IMG/VR virus record: IMGVR_UViG_2974511964_000001 | Location: 73,974 to 137,973 of that record | DNA: 64,000 bases | Source of the DNA: a virus | Taxonomy: Duplodnaviria; Caudoviricetes | Direction: 5' to 3' (one strand) | Part shown: positions 14,692-60,696 of the stretch, piece by piece | Layout: every line of letters starts with the position of its first letter | Numbering within the stretch: the first letter of the stretch is position 1 | Made by a program: the position numbers and the translations under genes | Notes under the pieces: model-generated | Databases searched by the model: none | Told to the model about the DNA's origin: nothing | Seen by the model: the letters and a program-made list of their open reading frames with translations, nothing else

Positions 14692-15907
14692 ATGAAAATT
14701 AATGACAACCGTAATGATGACTGGAAGCTCGGGGATGTTTTATATGATAATATTTCTGAAAATTACTATTTAATTGCAAGCTACAAGCACGAAATAGGAT
14801 TAGTTAATTTAGAAAGCGGGATTTCTGTGCTATCCCATAATCATGATGAATATCGTACTATCATTAACTCAGATAATTCAAATAAAAATGTGGTAAAACA
14901 AATTTTGAAACATTACAATGGAAAAGAAGATTTAGTTAAGATTGACAATGCTTACTTGAATGTGGAGGATTAATAAAATGAAAATTGATTATGATAATGC
15001 TAAACACGATAATGATAAATATAATACTGCTAAACAGGATTGGAAAGTAGGGGACATAATCCAAGATGACCTCATTGGCGGCGGTTTGTTTATGGTAGCT
15101 GAGGTTCCTATTGATGACTATGTTCTCTATACGTTGATTAATTTAGAAGAAGGGCGTAGCTTGGTATGTACTAATACTGTTAGTGAACTACAACAAACCT
15201 ATCAGGAAAAGGGTGATAGGGTTCTTAACGGGACTTTTAAGTATATTGGTGGGGATGACAAGTAAGGAGTAATTTTATGTATAAAATTAGGATGACTGAT
15301 AAAGCTCATAAAGTGTTTGGTGAGGTTAAATAATGAGCTGGTTTAATAGAAATAAAAATTGTCCGTATTGTACTCAAACAATGCCTTTTATGAGTAGGGA
15401 AGGGATTGAGTTGAGGATTGTATATGGTAACCAACTATTTACAAGTTATGAAAGTAAACAGATTAATATCACTATTAACTATTGCCCAATGTGTGGTAGA
15501 AAGCTGATGGGAGTTAAATAATGGAACAGCTAGATTTATTTGATACAACAACTAGTACAACTACTAAGAAGGTTACCCGTAAGCGTAAACGTAAGGTTAA
15601 GGTAACCACTACCACCACCACTACCACTACACAGCCTATCAACCAGCTACTTGTTGATGAAGAGTCAAAGCTAAAAGAACTGTTATCTCAGCCCAAACAA
15701 TTCGATGCTCTGAGAGGGGCTATAAGCTGGTTTAAGTCCAAACAGTATACTTGGTACTGTAACACGGTAGAACGTCCTGAGCGAGCTCTGAGGGGTCTTC
15801 AAAGCCATTTGAACGTGTCTGACGATAAATTTTATAAGATGTTGCTTAATGACAAGGTAATGGTAGGGTTAGCAAAAGGAACCTATTTAGTTTATTATAA
15901 AAAATGA
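14692..15907 (+). CDS. Four small hypothetical genes (14692-14973, 14978-15265, 15333-15521 Zn-ribbon, 15521-15907 Thr-rich)
   Basis: Closely packed ORFs with RBSs; DWKxGD motif shared by the first two; CPYC/CPMC in the third. Confidence 0.55.
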
Positions 15908-15971
15908 GTTGACAAAGCATATCAGAAATGGTATGCTTAATACATAGATTAAATTGAAAAGAGGTGATAAA

Positions 15972-17108
15972 ATGTATAAAGCATATAAAATTAGAATTTA
16001 CCCTAATAGACAACAAGAAACACAAATATTATTAACATTTGGTCATACTAGATTTGTTTGGAACCAAATGTTAGCCATGCAACTAGAACGCTATAAGAAT
16101 GGTGGTAAGTTTGTTAATGCTTTTGGTATGAACTACCTATTGACGCAGTTAAAAAAGGAGTACTCGTGGCTAACTGAATCTCCTAATCAAAGCTTACAGC
16201 AGGTATGCAAAGACTTATCAGATGCTTTTAAAAATCTGTTTGGACATAGAGCGAATAAACCAAAGTATAAGAGTAGAAAATACCCAAAGCAGAGTTATAG
16301 GTGTAACCAGAGGATATCGTTAGTAGACGGTCACCATATCAAGCTACCAAAACTTAAGACTGTGTACTACCGTTCTGGTAAAGAAATTAAAGGAAAAATT
16401 AAAAGTGTAACTATTCGTAAATCACCAACAGGTAAATATTATGCTAGCGTTCTGACTGAAATAGAGATTAAACCTTTAGCGAAAACCAAACAAGAGGTTG
16501 GAATTGATATGGGAGTTAAGGATTTAGCAATTACTAGTGATGGTACTAAATACAGAACTATCCGCTTTGATAAGTTATTAGCTGATAAGAAGCATTATTG
16601 GGAAGTACGGTTAGCAAGACGCCAAGCGTTAGCTAAGAAAGAAATAGCATGGGATAAACACAATAGAGTATTAGAACCCAGAGAGTTATCAGATTTTAGC
16701 AACTATATGAAAGCCAAACTAATGGTAGCTAAGTACAGTGAGAAGATAGCTAATCAAAGGAAAGACTATCTTCATAAGATTAGTACTGAGTTAGTAAACC
16801 AGTATGATGTTATCAAGGTTGAAGATTTGAAAGCTAGCAATATGATGAAAAATCACAAGCTATCACGAGCGATTGCTAATCAATCATGGAGAGAGCTACG
16901 TTTGATGTTAGAATACAAGTGTGAGTGGTATGGTAAAAAATTAGTGGTTGTTAGCCCATACAAAACCAGTCAAATTTGTTCATCATGTGGATATGATGAT
17001 GGCAAACATACCCTAGATGTTAGAGAATGGGTTTGTCCTAATTGTGGAGCTAAGCATGATAGAGATATCAATGCAGCTAAGAACATTCTAAAAGCAGAAG
17101 CAAAGTAG
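15972..17108 (+). CDS. tnpB: TnpB RNA-guided nuclease, IS200/IS605 family (no tnpA)
   Basis: KAYKIRIYP N-terminus; RuvC GIDMG / VEDL / DRD; CSSC..CPNC zinc finger. Confidence 0.92.
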   Translation: MYKAYKIRIYPNRQQETQILLTFGHTRFVWNQMLAMQLERYKNGGKFVNAFGMNYLLTQLKKEYSWLTESPNQSLQQVCKDLSDAFKNLFGHRANKPKYKSRKYPKQSYRCNQRISLVDGHHIKLPKLKTVYYRSGKEIKGKIKSVTIRKSPTGKYYASVLTEIEIKPLAKTKQEVGIDMGVKDLAITSDGTKYRTIRFDKLLADKKHYWEVRLARRQALAKKEIAWDKHNRVLEPRELSDFSNYMKAKLMVAKYSEKIANQRKDYLHKISTELVNQYDVIKVEDLKASNMMKNHKLSRAIANQSWRELRLMLEYKCEWYGKKLVVVSPYKTSQICSSCGYDDGKHTLDVREWVCPNCGAKHDRDINAAKNILKAEAK

Positions 17109-17231
17109 AAACACAATGTAAGGCTAGGGACTAGCCGTGGTAAAATAGTTATAGCCTCTGTATACTGCTAGTTTAGGGTATATAAGTTGTAATGTTCCCA
17201 GAAGCTCGTTACTTTAGCAACGAGTAGTTCA
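17109..17231 (+). ncRNA. omega-RNA / IS605-type right end of tnpB copy 1
   Basis: GGCTAGGGACTAGCC hairpin, GGTAAA...GTTCCCAGAAGCTC, subterminal hairpin ending GTAGTTCA; near-identical to the sequence after copy 2. Confidence 0.75.
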
Positions 17232-17284
17232 TCAATCGTGCTATGCAGGAAGCTAATCACATCCGAAGAGAGGGTAGGGTAATT

Positions 17285-19627: not shown

Positions 19628-20413
19628 GTGCCGGATAGTTTCTTAGCCTTTGACGAGGCTAACAGTTACTTAGATAAACAGCAACGCTCATTAGACTATT
19701 TGGACCGTATTCAAAAATTGGCAGTGATTACTAAAACTAGTATTGACATTAATAATACAAATGGGTATAATAGAGCAGTATATATTAATAAATTAAATCA
19801 TCTTAGTAAGCTACCAACAACTAGTATTGTGTTTACTAAATCAGCTCTTAAAGAACATGTGGGTAAGCCTATAAGTGTAGCTGAGTTTAAAGACTTAGCT
19901 GATGAGCTGAATAGTGATGATGACAGTATGCAAGTGTCAGTTGAAAGTCAAGTTGGGCTACTAATAGTAGAACCACAATCCCAAGCAGAAGCTATGCGTA
20001 AACTTATTCGTAAATTTTGGGAACAAGGACATACCATGAATGGCGATTGGAAGGTTCCAATTGTTTCAGGTCAAGATGCTAAGTTTGTTAATATGAACAT
20101 AAGCATGGGTGAGTCGAAAGGTGTAACGAGTGACCAAGCCGAAGACCTTTATGAGCAAGTAAAGAAATTAACTAATGACCCAGAGTATGAAAGACAAATT
20201 GACAATAGGATTGAAAAAGCATACGCCAATAAACTGCGCTCTGATAAGTTTTTAAGAGAAGAAGACTTTACGGTATACCCTGAGTTCATGGATGGCACAA
20301 ATAAGCAGATAGAGCATGCAGCGCAACACAATATTGATGCTATTAATAGTGTATTTCATACTAATACTGCTAAATTTGTAAATACTAAAGAAGAAAAGGA
20401 TGAAGAATATTGA
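19628..20413 (+). CDS. Hypothetical protein; start uncertain, may be a frameshift continuation of 18810-19556
   Basis: No RBS before GTG 19628; the frame is open back to 19538. Confidence 0.5.
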   Translation: MPDSFLAFDEANSYLDKQQRSLDYLDRIQKLAVITKTSIDINNTNGYNRAVYINKLNHLSKLPTTSIVFTKSALKEHVGKPISVAEFKDLADELNSDDDSMQVSVESQVGLLIVEPQSQAEAMRKLIRKFWEQGHTMNGDWKVPIVSGQDAKFVNMNISMGESKGVTSDQAEDLYEQVKKLTNDPEYERQIDNRIEKAYANKLRSDKFLREEDFTVYPEFMDGTNKQIEHAAQHNIDAINSVFHTNTAKFVNTKEEKDEEY

Positions 20414-21498
20414 ATAATTTAATTATTAATGCTGATAACATGGAAAACTCAACAGTTGAGAATAATGAAGTTAGCACCCAAGTAGACAGCTTAGAATTAA
20501 CTGATGACAGTATTGCTAAGTTTGGCTTAGATGTCCAACGTGGCGTTGGTGAATTAACTAGTGAAATCACCCAAAGTACCAAGAATAAGAATGCGGGGGA
20601 AACTGGTGAAGCAATTACCGCCTTAATGAAAATTATTCGTGAAAACGGCAAAGAGGAAGACCAGGGTGGTAACATTATTACCCGTTTGTTCCGCAAAGGT
20701 AAGAACTCTGTATATAATATCCAAGCTAAGAATCAAGCGGTAGACAAATCTATTGATACTATTTCTACCAAACTATCAGATTCCCAGACTGAGCTGAGCC
20801 ATGACAATGAAACACTAGACAAGATGTATGAGCAGAACAAGCAACAGTTTCAAGCCTTAAATGAACTAGTTGATATTGCTCAGGCCAAATTAAATGAGCT
20901 AGAATCGTCTATTATTCCAGAGTTAGATAACTACATTAAAACGACTAAGGATAGCGAGGATAAAATTAATGAGGCCACAATTAAGCTTAATGAATACCAG
21001 AATATGCAGTCAGCTTTGAGCCGTAAACTTAATAATCTAATTGCTTCTCGCCAACTAGCGTTATTACGAGCGCCTAAGCTAAAGACTTTAAAGCAAACTA
21101 ACTTAACAGTCATTGATAACTTACAGAGCTCAATTAACTTTGCAATTCCACTGTGGAAACAGCAAGCAGCAGATGCTATCCTATCTAGTCGTCAACAGCA
21201 GGCTATTGAGGTTCAGAAGTTCATGACTGAGCAGACTAATAAGATGATTGTATCTGGGGCCAATAATGTTCGTAAGGCTACTTTAGAGGCTCAAAAGCAG
21301 AGCAATGAATCCTTTGTATCGGCATCTAAATTAACACAAGCTACTGATATCTTGCGAGATACTCTCGTACAAGTGCAAAGCTTACAAAAGCAAGGAGACT
21401 CTTTACGCAAACAGGAAGCTAAGGACTTGCTACAGTCTGGGGAACACATGAAAAGTGTGGCTTTAGACTTGATGAATAATAATAAACTAATTGAATAA
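20410..21498 (+). CDS. telA: Toxic anion resistance protein (TelA family)
   Basis: Coiled-coil with IDTISTKL..L..DN.TLDKMYEQN and AIPLWKQQ motifs. Confidence 0.8.
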   Translation: MNNLIINADNMENSTVENNEVSTQVDSLELTDDSIAKFGLDVQRGVGELTSEITQSTKNKNAGETGEAITALMKIIRENGKEEDQGGNIITRLFRKGKNSVYNIQAKNQAVDKSIDTISTKLSDSQTELSHDNETLDKMYEQNKQQFQALNELVDIAQAKLNELESSIIPELDNYIKTTKDSEDKINEATIKLNEYQNMQSALSRKLNNLIASRQLALLRAPKLKTLKQTNLTVIDNLQSSINFAIPLWKQQAADAILSSRQQQAIEVQKFMTEQTNKMIVSGANNVRKATLEAQKQSNESFVSASKLTQATDILRDTLVQVQSLQKQGDSLRKQEAKDLLQSGEHMKSVALDLMNNNKLIE

Positions 21499-21566
21499 AA
21501 TAATTGACAAAGCATACCAAAAATGGTATGTTTAATACATATATTAAATTGAAAGGAGGTGAAAGT

Positions 21567-22703
21567 ATGTATAAAGCGTATAAAATTAGAATTTACCCTA
21601 ATAAACAACAAGAAGCACAAATATTATTAACTTTTGGACAGACTAGATTTGTTTGGAATAAAATGTTAGATATGCAATTAGAACGATACAGGAATGGTGG
21701 TAAGTTTGTTAACGCTTTTAGTATGGACTACCTATTGAAGCCACTGAAAAAAGAATATCCGTGGTTAACGGAGGCGCCTGCGCAAAGTCTACAACAGATA
21801 TGTAAAGACTTATCAGATGCTTTTAAAAATCTGTTTGAACATAGGGCAGGCAAACCCAAGTATAAGAGCAAAAAGTACCCAAAGCAGAGTTATAGATGCA
21901 ACCAAAGGATAATGTTAGTAGATGACCACCATATCAAGTTACCTAAACTAGGTTCTGTGTACTATCGCTCTGGTAGAGAAATTAAAGGTAAGATTAAAAG
22001 CGTAACTATCCGTAAATCTGCTACCAATAAATATTATGTTAGTGTCCTAACTGAAATAGAGATAAAACCTCTAGCGAAAATCAAGCAAGAGGTAGGTATT
22101 GATATGGGTGTTGCAGATTTAGTAATCACTAGTGATGGTAATAAATATAAAACAGTTAGATTTGACAAATTATTAGCTGATAAAAAACACTACTGGGAAG
22201 TACGATTGGCTCGTAGAAGGGCTTTAGCTAAGAAAGAAATAGCTTGGGATAAACACAATAATGTGCTGGAACCGAGAGAGTTATCAGATTTTAGTAACTA
22301 TATGAAAGCCAAGCTTATGGTAGCTAAGTATTCTGAGAAGATAGCTAACCAAAGAAAAGACTATCTTCATAAGATTAGTACCGAGCTAGTAAACCAGTAT
22401 GATGTTATCAAGATTGAAGATTTGAAAGCTGGTAATATGATGCGGAATCATAAGCTTGCTAGAACAATTGTTAATCAATCATGGAGAGAGCTACGTTTAA
22501 TGTTAGAATACAAATGTGAATGGTATGGTAAAGAGCTAGTAATTGTTAATCCATATAAGACCAGTCAAATCTGTTCTGACTGTGGCTATGATGACGGAAA
22601 GCATACTCTAGACGTTAGAGAATGGATTTGTCCTAATTGTGGTGCTAAGCATGATAGAGACATTAATGCTGCTAAGAACATTTTAAAGGAAGAAGCAAAG
22701 TAG
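21567..22703 (+). CDS. tnpB: TnpB RNA-guided nuclease, IS200/IS605 family, copy 2
   Basis: Close paralogue of 15972-17108; intact D/E/D RuvC triad; start at MYKAY after GGAGG. Confidence 0.92.
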   Translation: MYKAYKIRIYPNKQQEAQILLTFGQTRFVWNKMLDMQLERYRNGGKFVNAFSMDYLLKPLKKEYPWLTEAPAQSLQQICKDLSDAFKNLFEHRAGKPKYKSKKYPKQSYRCNQRIMLVDDHHIKLPKLGSVYYRSGREIKGKIKSVTIRKSATNKYYVSVLTEIEIKPLAKIKQEVGIDMGVADLVITSDGNKYKTVRFDKLLADKKHYWEVRLARRRALAKKEIAWDKHNNVLEPRELSDFSNYMKAKLMVAKYSEKIANQRKDYLHKISTELVNQYDVIKIEDLKAGNMMRNHKLARTIVNQSWRELRLMLEYKCEWYGKELVIVNPYKTSQICSDCGYDDGKHTLDVREWICPNCGAKHDRDINAAKNILKEEAK

Positions 22704-22830
22704 AAACACAATGTAAGGCTAGGGACTAGCCGTGGTAAGATAGTTATGACCTCTGTATATTGCTAGCTTAGGATATATAAGTTGTGATGTTCCCAGAAAC
22801 TTCTTAAATTTAAAAGGAGAAATAGTCCAC
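22704..22830 (+). ncRNA. omega-RNA / right end of tnpB copy 2
   Basis: Homologous to 17109-17231; ends ATAGTCCAC. Confidence 0.7.
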
Positions 22831-56402: not shown

Positions 56403-56662
56403 ACGTTAGAGTGCTAAATATCCTTTGACTGTCGCTGGCCCTGCCGTCTTTTCATCGCTCTCAAACTACTATTGATAGCTTCCTACACTATCTCACTAAC
56501 TATAATTCGGCTTCGCAGATATATAACTGGTAGTTTATTGACTTGCCTAGGTCAATTACTAATCTTTGGTACACTTATTTATCGACCTGAATTACTCCTC
56601 CATCCATTTCAATTTCGCCTTCTTGATGTTCATTGTAAAACAAGCTTTCTAATGAAGGATAA

Positions 56663-56801
56663 GTTCCATAGATATGTCATATGGTTAATGCATACCTTTC
56701 GGGGGAACTACAGAATTTGTTATAAAAACTTCTTATAATAGTGACTCCAGTATATTTACCCCGCTTTTTTAATGACTTCCGCAATGGATTTACGTAATGT
56801 C
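56663..56801 (-). ncRNA. Third copy of the omega-like scaffold plus a single repeat (guide at about 56633-56662), abutting the tRNA-Leu 3' end
   Basis: 56763-56801 is near-identical to 59069-59107 and 60613-60651; repeat GTTCCATAGATATGTCAT at 56663. Confidence 0.75.
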
Positions 56802-56803
56802 TA

Positions 56804-56877
56804 TGCTCTCGGTGAGATTCGAACTCACACTGTGTGGCTTCTAAGACCACTATCTCTGCCAATTGGATTACGAGAGC
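56804..56877 (-). tRNA. tRNA-Leu(TAG) with short variable loop
   Basis: GTGGT-CTTAGAA-GCCAC; 5-nt variable region. Confidence 0.8.
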
Positions 56878-56884
56878 AATATAA

Positions 56885-57450
56885 GTGTCCGCATTGGTTT
56901 GCGTAGTATACTTTAACTTTTACGATATATTCTGCCATACACTAGTCAGCGCCTACTAGCAAGGAGCTACCAAGCTAGCTGTTGACCCATTATAATGTGT
57001 AATCCAGCACAATGACTGATAACTTTCAGGCGTCATTAGGCATATAATATTTATATAGTTATTTTTATATTTGTATTCCTAGATTTACCCTACTAATACT
57101 CAACTAGTTACTTATAGGAGGAGTTACCTCTATCAACTAGAAAATAGCTTACTGATTTCCCTACTTGGTTCTGCCAGTTATCACACTAACATTAGCTTAG
57201 GGTCTGCGTATTGCGCTACCGTAACCGTTGATGCATTTATCGACAAACTTGTATCTAGCACTGAATCCGTGATGGCTTTCTTTCACCACAACCTTTGTCA
57301 CTACAACAATAGGTTTATTAAATCTACTAGCTATCACTATATAGACGTAATACACATTATGACAGCGCTGCTAGGCGAGATTGACAGTCTCTTATACACT
57401 AGCTTGACACTATGTATAGTTATGGTTGTAATTCTTTCAAATTATCAACC
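56885..57450 (-). ncRNA. Candidate large structured ncRNA (ROOL/GOLLD-like)
   Basis: About 570 nt between tRNAs without a credible ORF; nested long-range helices 56971-56978/57399-57406 and 56992-57001/57351-57360; local hairpins. Confidence 0.5.
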
Positions 57451-58515: not shown

Positions 58516-59003
58516 TATCTAAAAGTATGCCATTTCAATCATGTATACACCTTTAGCAGTTAGACTGTTTTTGAGGCTTTAGACCCATAGATATGTCATT
58601 TAAAGCATACACATACATTTCTCAATTATCCTTCGCATGAGAGACAAACTCCAGAGGTATGTCATTTATATCATGTACATGCCTACCGTTGAAACAGATT
58701 ATCAAGACTCCTTGCTCCAAAGATATGTCATTTAGAACATTTAAATACCGTACCGGACAAGCGCCATCGTGGGAGGATAGCTCCATAGGTATGCCATTTA
58801 GAGCATGTACATACCTATTCTAAGCAATCTGCTTGAGTATTATCAGTCCCGTAGGTATGTCATTTAGAGCAGGTACCTTCACGGTATACTCTTCTAAACA
58901 TTTCTATGCTCCAGAGGCATGTAATTTAGAACACGTACATACCTATTGCGTCCTGCCATAATAGCAGCGGTGTGCTCCACAGACATGTCATTTAATGCAT
59001 ACC
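58516..59003 (-). CRISPR. Degenerate CRISPR array 1: 8 repeats, 7 spacers of exactly 30 bp
   Basis: Repeats (+ strand consensus GCTCCATAGGTATGTCATTTAGAGCATGTACATACC) start at 58516, 58582, 58648, 58714, 58780, 58846 (32 bp), 58908 and 58974 (fused to scaffold); all spacers unique. Confidence 0.9.
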
Positions 59004-59117
59004 CTTCGAGGGAACTACAAGACTTGTATTTAAGGCTCTAAATATAGAGGTCTCAGTATATTTACCTTGCTTTTTTAATGACTTCCGCAATGGATTTACG
59101 TAATGTCATTTGCTTAT
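59004..59117 (-). ncRNA. omega-RNA/tracr-like scaffold leading into array 1
   Basis: Conserved in three copies; GGTAAA..hairpin..TGTAGTTCCC core; TCCAT..GTCATT is complementary to the repeat. Confidence 0.75.
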
Positions 59118-59123
59118 GTATAA

Positions 59124-59152
59124 AGAATACCATGATTGGTATTCTTTGTCAA
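59124..59152 (-). promoter_or_regulatory. Palindromic promoter driving scaffold + array 1
   Basis: TTGACA-N17-TATTCT with TG extension; AAAGAATACCA..TGGTATTCTTT inverted repeat. Confidence 0.75.
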
Positions 59153-59175: not shown

Positions 59176-60303
59176 TTATTTTTTGAAAGCTTCATCTCTA
59201 ATGTTTTTAGCCGCATTGATATCACGGTCATGAATAACACCACAGTTAGGGCACGCCCATTCACGGTCTCCCAAAGTAAGTTTATCCGCTCCTTCTAACC
59301 GATATCCACAGTCATTGCACGTCTGAGATGAAGGATAGAATCTATCAATCTTCTTGACTTCTTTATCATACCAATCAGCCTTGTACTGTAGTTGACGAGT
59401 AAACTCATATAGTGATACATCCCCAACAGCTTTAGCTAGCTTATGGTTAGCCATCATTCCCTTAACATTCAGGTCTTCAATGGCAATTTTATCATAATTA
59501 ACAATAAGATACTTGCTAATATTATGCAGATATGCCTTGCGTTGGTTTTGTAAACGTTCATATACTTTAGCACGCTTAATCTTAGCTTTAACCCTACCCA
59601 TACTACCATTTTGTTTACGGGCTAAAGCTCTATCAGCTTTAATAAGCTTCTTTTCACTCTTTTTGATAGCGTGCATATTAGAAAACTTTTTACCATCACT
59701 AGTAATGACAAAGTCTTTAATTCCCAAGTCTAATCCAATGGCTTTATCAGTGTGATAATCAACATTCTTAAAATGGTCATCAGGTACTTCAAAGCCGATT
59801 GATACATAGTATTCACCAGACTTTGTCATTGAGACAGTTGCTGAGATAATTCGGCAATCATCTGGTAATGGCCTATGCAGCACAATCTTAATTGGTGAAA
59901 TCTTAGGAAGTTTAATATGGTCATCCTCTAGTCTAATACTTTTTTCACCTTTGTGAACTCTAGTCTTATAAGACCATGCACATTTATGATAGTTTTTAAA
60001 CTTGGGGAATCCTACCTTTTGATGTTTCTTAATTCCTCTAAAGAAGTTTTGATATGCTTGGCTTAAATTTGTTCTTGCATAGTCCAAACAATTGTTATCG
60101 CAATCTTTTAAAAAGTAGTTTTCTGGCTTGTTTTTAACCCAAGTAACTAGCTTTAATTTAGACTTTCCTGTTTCTTCATATTGCTGTTTGGCATCAGCTA
60201 ATAAAGCGTTATAAACAAATCTAGCTCCATTGATGTTTTTCCAAATTAGTTCTTGTTGCTCCTTATTCGGATAAATTCTATATTTATGTGCATAATTAAT
60301 CAT
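59176..60303 (-). CDS. tnpB: CRISPR-associated TnpB-like (Cas12f-sized) RNA-guided nuclease, 375 aa
   Basis: HKYRIYP; RuvC GLDLG / IEDL / DRD intact; CNDC..CPNC; start ATG 60303 (the track's start at 60366 lies inside a repeat). Confidence 0.9.
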   Translation of the reverse strand: MINYAHKYRIYPNKEQQELIWKNINGARFVYNALLADAKQQYEETGKSKLKLVTWVKNKPENYFLKDCDNNCLDYARTNLSQAYQNFFRGIKKHQKVGFPKFKNYHKCAWSYKTRVHKGEKSIRLEDDHIKLPKISPIKIVLHRPLPDDCRIISATVSMTKSGEYYVSIGFEVPDDHFKNVDYHTDKAIGLDLGIKDFVITSDGKKFSNMHAIKKSEKKLIKADRALARKQNGSMGRVKAKIKRAKVYERLQNQRKAYLHNISKYLIVNYDKIAIEDLNVKGMMANHKLAKAVGDVSLYEFTRQLQYKADWYDKEVKKIDRFYPSSQTCNDCGYRLEGADKLTLGDREWACPNCGVIHDRDINAAKNIRDEAFKK

Positions 60304-60359: not shown

Positions 60360-60547
60360 GCTCCATAGATATATCATTTAGAGCATGTACATGCCTTTTG
60401 AGGCTTTAGTTCCATAGTTATGTCATTTCAATCATGTACATACCAATCTAACCTGGAATCATTATTTTGATGTTGTTCCATAGATATGTCATTTATAAGT
60501 GTATACCCTCCAAGCTCCAGAAGTATGTCATACGGCTAATGCACGCC
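60360..60547 (-). CRISPR. Degenerate CRISPR array 2: 4 repeats with spacers of 13, 30 and 6 bp
   Basis: Repeats at 60360, 60409, 60475 and 60514; same consensus as array 1. Confidence 0.85.
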
Positions 60548-60661
60548 TTTCAAGGGAACTACAGAATTTGTTATAAAGTTTCTTATAATAGTGATTCCAG
60601 TATATTTACCTCGCTTTTTTAATGACTTCCGCAATGGATTTACGTATTGTCATTTGCTTAT
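60548..60661 (-). ncRNA. omega-RNA/tracr-like scaffold leading into array 2
   Basis: Homologous to 59004-59117 and 56697-56801. Confidence 0.75.
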
Positions 60662-60667
60662 GTATTA

Positions 60668-60696
60668 AGAATACCATGATTGGTATTCTTTGTCAA
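60668..60696 (-). promoter_or_regulatory. Palindromic promoter driving scaffold + array 2
   Basis: Identical to 59124-59152. Confidence 0.75.

What the first reader, a model, noticed from the sequence alone, without database searches (positions are those of the whole stretch)
59004..59117. Scaffold is an omega-RNA derivative carrying an anti-repeat (RNA splitting in progress)
Seen: on the - strand the scaffold reads ..GACATTACGTAAATCCATTGCGGAAGTCATTAAAAAAGC..GGTAAATATACTG..hairpin..TGTAGTTCCC and then runs into the first repeat. The GGTAAA-hairpin-GTTCCC core of about 60 nt also occurs in the IS605 omega-RNAs at about 17139-17199 and 22734-22794. TCCAT-N7-GTCATT is complementary to the most conserved part of the repeats (AATGAC-N6-ATGGA). 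The internal hairpin covaries between copies (TTATAA/TTATAA versus TATTTA/TAAATA). Inference: scaffold + first repeat forms a natural single guide, and the scaffold could act in trans as a tracrRNA for the downstream repeat-spacer units.
Basis: partly seen in the sequence, partly recalled or inferred. Interest (0 to 1): 0.85.

Follow-up and report, generated by a model that had tools for sequence, protein, structure and literature searches.

The report
Phage TnpB guide scaffold, split omega-RNA
This 113-base stretch of a Lactobacillus phage encodes the helper RNA of a very small CRISPR-like nuclease (a 375-aa TnpB); it is the front part of a transposon guide RNA, and it appears to dock onto each CRISPR repeat through a four-base-pair knot to aim the nuclease at the host's plasmids.

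Summary

- **The locus.** Window 59005-59117 (- strand) is one of three copies of a about 107-nt scaffold RNA gene in a Lactiplantibacillus phage of the Harbinvirus group. A 375-aa ISDra2-like TnpB gene lies between two units of promoter, scaffold and array.
- **Homology to omega-RNA.** A covariance model of 22 scaffold copies hits the RNA directly after the stop codon of the nearest ordinary tnpB genes (E 2.5e-4 and 2.2e-3). It also hits the window's two solo tnpB genes, weakly.
- **The contact with the repeat.** A 4-nt hairpin loop, TCCA, pairs with repeat nucleotides -6 to -3, TGGA. The pair covaries as TCCA:TGGA, TCCG:CGGA, CCGG:CCGG and GTTG:CAAC. Of 38 combinations, 33 are fully paired; none is in any shifted register. 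This matches the ISDra2 omega-RNA pseudoknot.
- **The correction.** It is not an anti-repeat.
- **The repeat.** Each repeat has the layout of the omega-RNA 3' module: hairpin, TA, pseudoknot strand, two nucleotides, then the guide.
- **Targets.** Eight spacers match Lactobacillaceae plasmids, with a 5' TCYN-like motif.

The kind is known (TranC, RNA splitting); this is a new variant. The scan has noted related phage TnpB-array loci on other DNA.

The parts
59124..59152 (-). Promoter of scaffold unit B (TTGACA, 17 nt, TG-n-TATTCT)
   Evidence: Joint best consensus match in the region (10 of 12, with TG). The same cassette precedes scaffold A and is conserved in related phages.
59005..59117 (-). 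Scaffold B, the finding itself. Outer stem P1 is 59110-59105 with 59082-59077. Inner hairpin P1b is 59100-59096 with 59090-59086, and its loop ATCCA is 59095-59091. The long hairpin domain P3/P2 is 59069-59007.
   Evidence: Alignment A1 and RNAalifold, pair counts, model R1 at 123.9 bits.
59091..59094 (-). Loop 4-mer TCCA, the 5' strand of the pseudoknot.
   Evidence: It covaries with repeat nt 31-34 in four allelic states. 33 of 38 combinations are fully paired and 0 of 38 in slid registers.
58974..59004 (-). Repeat 1, joined in cis to the scaffold. It has a shortened hairpin, then TG, then TGGA (58979-58976), then GC.
   Evidence: the fold leaves the last 8 nt unpaired. It is collinear with stem 4 plus the pseudoknot strand of the window's solo-tnpB omega-RNAs.
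58944..58973 (-). Spacer 1 (30 nt)
   Evidence: 29 of 30 match to a terminase gene on L. plantarum 'plasmid' NZ_CP143882; 5' flank ..ACCT.
58516..58943 (-). Rest of array B: repeats 2-8 (36 nt, the last one degenerate) and spacers 2-7 (30 nt, period 66)
   Evidence: Spacers 2, 3, 5 and 7 match Lactobacillaceae plasmids.
59176..60303 (-). tnpB-like effector gene (375 aa, P0001)
   Evidence: Pfam HTH_OrfB_IS605, OrfB_IS605 and Cas12f1-like_TNB. D191, E275 and D358 are present. Full-length match to ISDra2 TnpB, E 1.5e-69.
60549..60696 (-). Promoter A (60696-60668) and scaffold A (60655-60549)
   Evidence: model R1 at 125 bits.
60360..60548 (-). Array A: four repeats with spacers of about 6, 30 and 13 nt. 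The transcript would read on into the tnpB-like gene.
   Evidence: The 30-nt spacer matches most of the 210 plasmid records hit by the array A query.
56633..56805 (-). Scaffold C (56805-56698), starting 2 nt after tRNA-Leu, plus one repeat (56697-56663) and one spacer (56662-56633)
   Evidence: model R1 at 117.2 bits.
17122..17232 (+). Complete omega-RNA of solo tnpB 15954-17108. The 5' hairpin has loop GGGAC, followed by the GGTAAA..GTTCCC core, stem 4, TA, GTTC and AT.
22717..22830 (+). Complete omega-RNA of solo tnpB 21504-22703. The layout is the same. Stem 4 differs from the other copy by compensatory changes, and the pseudoknot strand is GTCC.

Best explanation
The element is the gene for the 5' about 107 nt of an omega-RNA that has become a separate, promoter-driven scaffold RNA. 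The scaffold serves a phage-encoded, ISDra2-like TnpB of 375 aa.

**The scaffold.** It folds into an outer stem P1 that encloses a small hairpin P1b, followed by an A-rich linker and a long hairpin domain.

**The repeat.** Each 36-nt CRISPR repeat is the counterpart of the omega-RNA 3' module. It has a hairpin ('stem 4'), then two nucleotides, a 4-nt pseudoknot strand, two more nucleotides, and then the 30-nt guide.

**The contact.** The P1b loop (TCCA) pairs with that 4-nt strand (TGGA). This rebuilds, between two RNA segments, the pseudoknot that ordinary omega-RNAs form within one molecule. The guide is thereby placed in the nuclease.

**Two modes.** Repeat 1 is still joined to the scaffold, so scaffold plus repeat 1 plus spacer 1 is a natural single guide. 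Units further down must pair with a scaffold that is not adjacent to them.

**Likely function.** The RNP most likely cuts Lactobacillaceae plasmids and phage-like plasmids next to a 5' TCYN-like motif.

**Shown here:** homology to omega-RNA, the scaffold fold, the loop-repeat covariation, and the targets with their flanking motif.

**Inferred:** RNP assembly, action in trans, RNA processing, and cleavage.
For: **Homology to omega-RNA**
- Model R1, built from 22 scaffolds, hits positions 1471-1567 of L168 (31 bits, E 2.5e-4) and 1955-2047 of L170 (25.7 bits, E 2.2e-3).
- Both hits lie right after the stop codons of tnpB genes 51% and 46% identical to P0001.
- R1 also aligns to both window omega-RNAs in register.

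**Fold**
- 97.6% of cells are paired against 85.8% in shuffles; 13 pairs changed on both sides.
- Many G-U pairs would be A-C on the other strand, so the - strand is the RNA sense.

**Pseudoknot**
- The scaffold loop and repeat nt 31-34 occur as TCCA:TGGA, TCCG:CGGA, CCGG:CCGG and GTTG:CAAC/CGAC.
- 33 of 38 distinct combinations are fully paired. None of 38 is fully paired when the repeat 4-mer is slid (2 of 38 at one scaffold-site offset, +4).
- Seven ordinary relatives show the same rule within a single RNA. The 5' hairpin loop is complementary to nt -6 to -3, which follow a stem-loop.
- ISDra2 has -6..-2 paired with -102..-106 (PMC10097598).

**Pairing with non-adjacent repeats**
- In Lpa804 unit A and L099 unit A the first repeat is degenerate.
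- All 7 downstream repeats nevertheless carry CGGA, matching their own scaffold's TCCG.

**Function**
- Eight independent spacers match Lactobacillaceae plasmids at 27-29 of 30.
- Every mismatch but one lies at spacer position 15 or later.
- C at -3 occurs in 7 of 8, and a pyrimidine at -2 in 8 of 8.
- Two lineages hit the same small plasmid at different sites.
- The array's own repeat ends (GAGC, GAAC) lack the motif.
- The RuvC triad is intact.
Against: - No RNA ends, RNP or cleavage have been shown.
- The helix is only 4 bp (5 in some units), and the predicted fold of scaffold plus repeat 1 is not unusually stable (z = -1.26).
- Relatedness inflates covariation counts. The four loop alleles represent about three independent changes.
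- Repeats within one array could be kept alike by gene conversion, so complementarity in downstream repeats might be inherited rather than selected.
- The phage has no Cas1, so how spacers are gained is unexplained.
- The P3 helix and any role of the invariant GGAA and TTCCC are not supported by covariation.
- Guide start points in the ordinary relatives are inferred by analogy with ISDra2.
Confidence: 0.72

Rival explanations
1. The scaffold is a tracrRNA with a bipartite anti-repeat, TCCAT-N7-GTCATT, that forms two helices with AATGAC-N6-ATGGA of each repeat.
For: Both halves are complementary in this phage and its close relatives. In tRNA-fused copies the scaffold's own 5' arm is cut down to GAC, which leaves GTCATT free to pair elsewhere.
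Against: GTCMTT covaries with the scaffold's own 5' AAKGAC. TGAC/GTCA becomes GGAC/GTCC in five copies. In the lineages with GTCC the repeats carry TTGAC, TTGTC or TTGAT, so only 3 bp could form. In the repeats, AATGAC overlaps the 3' arm of the repeat's own hairpin.
Confidence: 0.08
2. The pseudoknot forms only in cis. The scaffold serves only the guide joined to it (repeat 1). The downstream repeat-spacer units are either stand-alone crRNAs or dead cargo, and they carry the complementary 4-mer only because they are copies of repeat 1.
For: Single-unit cassettes exist: copy C, G002 downstream, G001 and the M lineage. Repeats fold on their own into a hairpin followed by a free tail, as Cas12a-type crRNAs do. 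The helix is very short.
Against: In several units repeat 1 is degenerate and is followed by a roughly 10-nt remnant. The downstream repeats in those units still match the loop of their own scaffold, including the TCCG:CGGA variant. Downstream spacers have plasmid matches with the flanking motif and an intact 5' seed. A 375-aa TnpB without REC expansions is expected to need the large RNA scaffold (established knowledge of ISDra2 TnpB, PMC10097598).
Confidence: 0.13
3. The array is a host type II-A (Cas9) array captured by the phage. Either it is read on the + strand by host Cas9, or it acts as a decoy, and the scaffold is unrelated to its use. A milder form of this rival is that host type II-A adaptation proteins supply the spacers, which the TnpB then reads antisense.
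For: The 36-nt repeat and 30-nt spacer geometry fits type II-A. The flanking CC at -3 and -2 is NGG on the other strand in 5 of 8 protospacers. The phage has no Cas1. The scan's notes on other phages report TnpB scaffolds fused to host-like type I-E arrays (not checked here).
Against: An exact-pattern scan of one genome per species found no Lactobacillaceae array with this repeat core. No paper holds the repeat. Promoters, all neighbouring genes and the G-U pairs point to the - strand. Scaffold and array are always linked in one orientation with the tnpB-like gene. The repeat layout equals the omega-RNA 3' module of relatives. Three of 8 flanks are not NGG.
Confidence: 0.07

Closest known systems
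ISDra2 TnpB with its omega-RNA (OMEGA system of IS200/IS605; PDB 8H1J, 8EXA; PMC10097598)
   Same: P0001 aligns over its full length (E 1.5e-69). The RNA architecture is shared: a 5' hairpin segment pairs with nt -6 to -3 just before the guide to form a pseudoknot, and a stem-loop precedes it. Scaffold B plus repeat 1 plus spacer 1 is a complete omega-RNA analogue.
   Different: There is no transposase and no transposon ends. The scaffold has its own promoter downstream of the stop codon instead of overlapping the gene. It occurs in 3-4 copies per genome. There are many guides from arrays instead of one flank-derived guide. The pseudoknot is formed with repeats that are not adjacent to the scaffold. 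The ISDra2 C-terminal tail is missing (375 aa against 408 aa).
TranC, transposon-CRISPR intermediates (Jin et al., Cell 2025, known here only through PMC13565253 and bioRxiv 10.64898/2026.03.27.714800; LaTranC PDB 9JFO)
   Same: A TnpB-sized effector next to a cas1-less CRISPR array. The guide RNA is functionally split into a scaffold and a crRNA, and a single-molecule form coexists. One clade (CauTranC9) comes from a tailed phage.
   Different: P0001 matches LaTranC only in the RuvC part (E 6e-31). At 375 aa it is smaller than the roughly 414-aa average reported for clade 9. The split lies upstream of stem 4, so the only contact is a 4-bp pseudoknot. The preprint could not find a consistent tracrRNA for several clades by anti-repeat search. 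The targets here are host plasmids rather than phages. Membership of a published clade could not be tested.
Cas12f tracrRNA:crRNA (type V-F)
   Same: The repeat:anti-repeat 1 helix of Cas12f is the structural equivalent of the omega-RNA pseudoknot (PMC10097598). The loop:TGGA helix here takes the same place.
   Different: Cas12f has a second, longer repeat:anti-repeat duplex that corresponds to stem 4. Here stem 4 is formed within the repeat itself, and no long duplex with the scaffold exists.
Engineered tRNA-gRNA cassettes
   Same: Copy C starts 2 nt after tRNA-Leu with no promoter of its own, so tRNA processing would define its 5' end.
   Different: It is natural, and it is one of several ways in which this phage expresses the scaffold.

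Membership tests
TnpB / omega-RNA (OMEGA, IS200/IS605) | TnpB protein with a RuvC D-E-D triad and zinc finger | tested here: met
   Pfam domains; D191, E275 and D358 in the alignment; ISDra2 TnpB E 1.5e-69.
TnpB / omega-RNA (OMEGA, IS200/IS605) | Structured RNA at or after the 3' end of tnpB that is homologous to omega-RNAs of relatives | tested here: met
   The scaffold model hits the post-stop RNA of relatives at 51% and 46% identity (E 2.5e-4 and 2.2e-3). Hits to the window's own solo tnpB RNAs are weak. No Rfam family matched.
TnpB / omega-RNA (OMEGA, IS200/IS605) | Pseudoknot between a 5' segment and the nucleotides just before the guide | tested here: met
   Covariation of loop and repeat; the same rule holds in 7 ordinary relatives.
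TnpB / omega-RNA (OMEGA, IS200/IS605) | A single guide taken from the DNA flanking the transposon right end; a mobile element with TnpA and transposon ends | tested here: not met
   There are arrays of 30-nt spacers. No TnpA family was found in the neighbouring ORFs. The locus sits at the same position in Bacchae and Lpa804.
TranC / tracrRNA-dependent type V CRISPR-Cas | TnpB-derived effector linked to a CRISPR array across relatives | tested here: met
   Window, Bacchae, Lpa804, G002/G003 (71% identity) and metagenome contigs.
TranC / tracrRNA-dependent type V CRISPR-Cas | Guide RNA split into a scaffold (tracr) and a crRNA that base-pair | tested here: inconclusive
   Complementarity with compensatory changes is shown, including with non-adjacent repeats. 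Two separate RNA molecules have not been shown.
TranC / tracrRNA-dependent type V CRISPR-Cas | Spacers match mobile elements next to a conserved 5' motif | tested here: met
   Eight protospacers in Lactobacillaceae plasmids with 5' TCYN-like flanks.
TranC / tracrRNA-dependent type V CRISPR-Cas | Placement in one of the published TranC or V-U clades | not testable with these tools
   The Cell 2025 paper is not held. Only LaTranC is in the PDB, and the match to it is partial.
Classical tracrRNA | Long anti-repeat:repeat duplex (about 10 bp or more) | tested here: not met
   Only 4-5 bp covary. The proposed second helix is a stem within the scaffold.
Type II-A CRISPR array | 36-nt repeats with 30-nt spacers | tested here: met
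   Period of 66.
Type II-A CRISPR array | cas9, cas1, cas2 and csn2 nearby, or a host array with the same repeat | tested here: not met
   No Cas1 in the phage. No Lactobacillaceae hit for the repeat core (exact pattern only, one genome per species).

The most novel reading that the evidence does not exclude
This may be a living transition series from omega-RNA to CRISPR inside one phage genome. Ordinary one-piece omega-RNAs (two solo tnpB genes), a scaffold still joined to its first repeat, and repeat-spacer units that reach the scaffold only through a 4-bp pseudoknot all coexist. The split would lie upstream of stem 4, a point not described for tracrRNA systems and invisible to anti-repeat searches. 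The CRISPR repeat would then be the duplicated 3' module of the omega-RNA. A lytic phage would use the whole system, with a 375-aa nuclease, against its host's plasmids.
Probability: 0.5. Interest if true: 0.85.

Novelty: new variant of a known kind. Interest (0 to 1): 0.74.

Why it matters
How type V CRISPR systems arose from TnpB transposon nucleases is an open question. The leading idea is that the omega-RNA split into a tracrRNA and a crRNA.

**A natural case with all stages.** This locus shows the stages side by side, and the contact between the two halves can be read from covariation. It is the conserved pseudoknot, just four base pairs. The repeat is the omega-RNA's own 3' module.

**Anti-repeat searches.** This may explain why anti-repeat searches fail for some compact TnpB-like CRISPR systems. 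It also gives a simple search rule: look for a hairpin loop complementary to repeat nt -6 to -3.

**A test system.** The locus offers a very small nuclease (375 aa) with a short motif and a defined two-part guide for testing.

**Phage biology.** It points to a lytic phage that aims an RNA-guided nuclease at host plasmids and phage-like plasmids, an under-studied kind of conflict between mobile elements.

Tried and rejected
- **Rfam.** There was no match to the scaffold or arrays at gathering scores or at E up to 1.
- **Protospacers outside plasmids.** None were found in the phage collection or in the phage's own genome.
- **Array B spacers 4 and 6.** These had no plasmid match.
- **Host array with the same repeat.** An exact-pattern scan gave only single chance hits in unrelated phyla, and the full-text search found nothing. 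The test is weak because diverged repeats would be missed. Lactobacillaceae genomes could not be reached with the genome search, because a virus record has no relatives.
- **RNA evidence.** Contigs from four RNA libraries cover the scaffold and array of related phages, with different spacer content. Contigs show neither strand nor ends, DNA can be present in such libraries, and the scaffold is multi-copy. This is therefore not evidence of transcription.
- **Thermodynamics.** The minimum-energy fold of scaffold plus repeat 1 is not more stable than shuffles (z = -1.26).
- **My early idea that GTAGTTCCC is the ancestral omega-RNA 3' end.** I dropped this. The two solo-tnpB RNAs continue about 35-45 nt further, with a compensating stem 4. 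The nearest relatives align to the scaffold through ..CCYYGAA and then continue.
- **A pseudoknot between GGAA and TTCC within the scaffold.** Four copies have GAAA with no compensating change, so there is no support.
- **The P3 helix.** Its variable pairs fit independent transitions, so it has no covariation support.
- **More distant relatives.** Those from IMG/VR (36-44% identity, L005-L008) have no arrays and are not hit by the model.
- **Left ends and target motif of the two solo tnpB copies.** Their similarity starts at a phage promoter cassette, not at a transposon end.

Full report
**Setting.** The window belongs to a 138-kb phage about 94% identical over this locus to Lactobacillus phage Bacchae and about 96% to Lpa804. 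Both are Herelleviridae of the genus Harbinvirus and infect L. plantarum.

On the - strand the order is as follows:
- promoter A (60696-60668)
- scaffold A (60655-60549)
- array A (60548-60360)
- a 375-aa tnpB-like gene (60303-59176, P0001)
- promoter B (59152-59124)
- scaffold B (59117-59005, the finding)
- array B (59004-58516; eight 36-nt repeats and 30-nt spacers)
- a tRNA cluster

A third scaffold copy (56805-56698) begins 2 nt after tRNA-Leu and carries one repeat and one spacer. Two further tnpB genes on the + strand (15954-17108 and 21504-22703) are 87% identical to each other and 35% identical to P0001.

The sequence reads as described. The GGTAAA..GTTCCC core is present after both solo tnpB genes. 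The hairpin differs between copies A and B by compensatory changes.

I collected 24 distinct scaffold copies. They come from Bacchae (4 copies), Lpa804 (3), a 136.6-kb phage that has a scaffold but no tnpB-like gene, phage contigs whose effector is 71% identical, and metagenome contigs.

The alignment of 22 copies gives the following consensus fold:
- an outer stem P1 (TGAC/GTCA)
- an inner hairpin P1b (CGTAA/TTGCG) with a 5-nt loop
- an A-rich linker
- a long hairpin domain

On this fold 97.6% of cells are paired, against 85.8% in shuffles (0 of 500 reach it). Thirteen pairs changed on both sides, and slid registers give 36-44%. Many pairs are G-U, which would be A-C on the opposite strand. 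Together with the promoters, this fixes the - strand as the RNA sense.

**Is it an omega-RNA derivative?** P0001 is an ISDra2-type TnpB. It matches PDB 8H1J and 8EXA at E 1.5e-69 over the full length, and LaTranC only in the RuvC part. The catalytic D, E and D are present.

In the large protein collection the array-linked proteins form a small clade at 68% identity or more. There is then a gap down to 51%, followed by thousands of ordinary TnpBs at 44-50%.

A covariance model of the scaffold gave these hits:
- the RNA immediately after the stop codon of the 51% relative (L168 1471-1567, 31 bits, E 2.5e-4)
- the same region of a 46% relative (L170 1955-2047, 25.7 bits, E 2.2e-3)
- the window's own solo-tnpB RNAs only weakly: 13.2 and 9.0 bits, E 3.5 in 86 kb, and 0.014 and 0.082 in the 351-nt regions. 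Both hits sit in the same register and at the expected place.

The homology claim therefore rests mainly on the nearer relatives.

The GTCATT half fails. It covaries with the scaffold's own 5' end: TGAC/GTCA in the window lineage and GGAC/GTCC in five other copies (column pair 4:34 is UA 6, UG 6, GC 5). The repeats of the GTCC lineages carry TTGAC, TTGTC or TTGAT and cannot pair with it.

The TCCA half holds, and strongly. TCCA is the P1b loop. In every lineage the loop 4-mer is complementary to repeat nucleotides 31-34, that is -6 to -3 from the spacer:

| Scaffold loop | Repeat nt 31-34 | Where |
|---|---|---|
| TCCA | TGGA | window lineage |
| TCCG | CGGA | unit A of Lpa804 and of contig L099, 7 of 7 repeats |
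| CCGG | CCGG | second lineage |
| GTTG | CAAC or CGAC | third lineage |

Of 38 distinct scaffold-repeat combinations, 33 are fully paired. None is when the repeat 4-mer is slid; sliding the scaffold site gives 2 of 38 at one offset (+4) and none at the others. A hairpin between TCCA and the nearby CGGA inside the scaffold cannot explain this, because it fails in the second and third lineages.

**Meaning of that helix.** In the ISDra2 omega-RNA, nucleotides -6 to -2 just before the guide pair with -102 to -106 near the 5' end. This forms a pseudoknot that stacks on stem 1. Stem 4 lies directly upstream, and the guide-pseudoknot-stem unit is conserved in Cas12 guide RNAs (PMC10097598).

I found the same rule within single RNAs in seven ordinary relatives of P0001. 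Each has a 5' hairpin whose loop is complementary to the 4 nt at -6 to -3, and those 4 nt follow a stem-loop:

| Relative | Loop : strand |
|---|---|
| L168 | GAAC:GTTC |
| L169 | GAAT:ATTC |
| L170 | TGTC:GACA |
| window solo tnpB, first copy | GGAC:GTTC |
| window solo tnpB, second copy | GGAC:GTCC |
| L006 | GAAC:GTTC |
| L007 | GAAT:GTTC |

Their 3' layout is stem 4, TA, 4 nt, 2 nt, then the guide. The CRISPR repeat has the same layout: hairpin, TA, TGGA, GC, then the spacer. Most repeats are predicted to fold into that hairpin with the last 8 nt left free.

Three conclusions follow:
- The repeat corresponds to the 3' module of the omega-RNA.
- The scaffold corresponds to the 5' about 107 nt.
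- The break lies upstream of stem 4, not in the stem 4 loop as in Cas12f-type tracrRNA:crRNA pairs.

Scaffold B plus repeat 1 plus spacer 1 is collinear with the full omega-RNA of the first solo tnpB:
- first solo tnpB: ..GTTCCCAGAA-G-stem 4-TA-GTTC-AT
- scaffold B: ..GTTCCCTCGAA-G-hairpin-TG-TGGA-GC

**Cis or trans.** The joined first unit is a natural single guide in window units B and C. In Bacchae unit A, both Lpa804 units and both L099 units, the first repeat has decayed (..CCAATGGTTACC) and is followed by about 10 nt. Canonical repeats with full spacers follow and still match their own scaffold's loop, including the TCCG:CGGA variant. This argues for pairing with non-adjacent repeats. 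Whether that happens within a long precursor or between separate molecules cannot be told from sequence.

**Function.** Spacers match Lactobacillaceae plasmids:

| Spacer | Target |
|---|---|
| array B spacer 1 | terminase gene on a 34.5-kb phage-like 'plasmid' |
| array B spacer 2 | 2-kb plasmids of the pLF24 type |
| array B spacer 3 | 17-72-kb plasmids |
| array B spacer 5 | more than 35 plasmids of 28-75 kb, 28 of 28 aligned |
| array B spacer 7 | many small plasmids such as pWCFS101, at an inverted repeat outside annotated genes |
| array A, the 30-nt spacer | most of the 210 plasmid records hit by the array A query, next to replication genes |
| a spacer of the 71% relative | pLF24 again, at another site |
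| an L099 spacer | phage-like plasmids |

Identity is 27-29 of 30. All mismatches but one lie at spacer position 15 or later. The 5' flank reads ACCT, TCCA, TCCT, TCCC, TCCT/TCCC, TCTT, ATCT and ACTT. C is at -3 in 7 of 8, and a pyrimidine is at -2 in 8 of 8.

The array's own repeat ends lack this motif, which would spare the phage. There are no matches in phage records or in the phage itself. The phage has no Cas1, so how spacers are gained is unknown.

**Origin of the array.** The module correspondence favours duplication of the omega-RNA 3' end. On the other side, the 36/30 geometry and the CC motif (GG on the other strand) keep a host type II-A contribution alive. I found no host array with this repeat, but the test was weak.

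**Comparison and novelty.** Omega-RNA splitting and TnpB-CRISPR intermediates (TranC) are published (Jin et al., Cell 2025, via PMC13565253 and bioRxiv 10.64898/2026.03.27.714800). That work includes a phage-borne compact clade.

This locus is a new variant for these reasons:
- The effector is smaller.
- The split point differs, leaving only a 4-bp contact.
- The scaffold genes are multi-copy, and some are fused to tRNAs.
- The spacers are aimed at plasmids.
- One-piece, joined and split forms coexist in one genome.

Membership of a published clade could not be tested. The scan has noted related phage TnpB-array loci on other DNA. I did not check those notes.

Noticed in passing
window 56872-57427 (-): ROOL RNA (Rfam RF03087, 144 bits, full length) inside the tRNA cluster, directly upstream of tRNA-Leu and scaffold copy C.
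   Followed up: no
window 15901-15960 and 21497-21560 (+): Both solo tnpB genes have no TnpA neighbour. Each is preceded by the same phage promoter cassette (TTGACAAAGCATA..TGGTATG.TTAATACATA) that drives the scaffolds. The similarity between the two copies starts at that promoter, not at a transposon end. They look like fixed phage genes rather than mobile IS605 copies.
   Followed up: partly
window 17205-17232 and 22800-22830 (+): The two solo-tnpB omega-RNAs differ in stem 4 by compensatory changes (CTCGTT/AACGAG against CTTCTT/AAGGAG) and in the pseudoknot strand (GTTC against GTCC). After that their guides both begin with CAAT and then differ.
   Followed up: partly
L013 (IMG/VR 136.6-kb phage, G001): A complete related phage keeps a promoter, a scaffold and one repeat, but no tnpB-like gene was found anywhere in the record. 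It is an orphan scaffold.
   Followed up: partly
L021 and L163 (plasmid pLF24, NC_011798.1): Two effector lineages (the window phage and the 71% relative) carry different spacers against the same 2.4-kb plasmid family, at sites about 360 bp apart.
   Followed up: partly
L143 and L158 (metagenome contigs): In the third lineage the single repeat after the scaffold runs straight into a TTGACA..TACAAT promoter. The 'guide' there would be the next promoter.
   Followed up: no
window 60396-60408 and 58569-58581: The 13-nt spacer of array A equals the first 13 nt (RNA sense) of array B spacer 7. That is the end next to the flanking motif.
   Followed up: partly
window 20410-21498 (+): TelA-like (toxic anion resistance) gene directly upstream of the second solo tnpB.
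   Followed up: no
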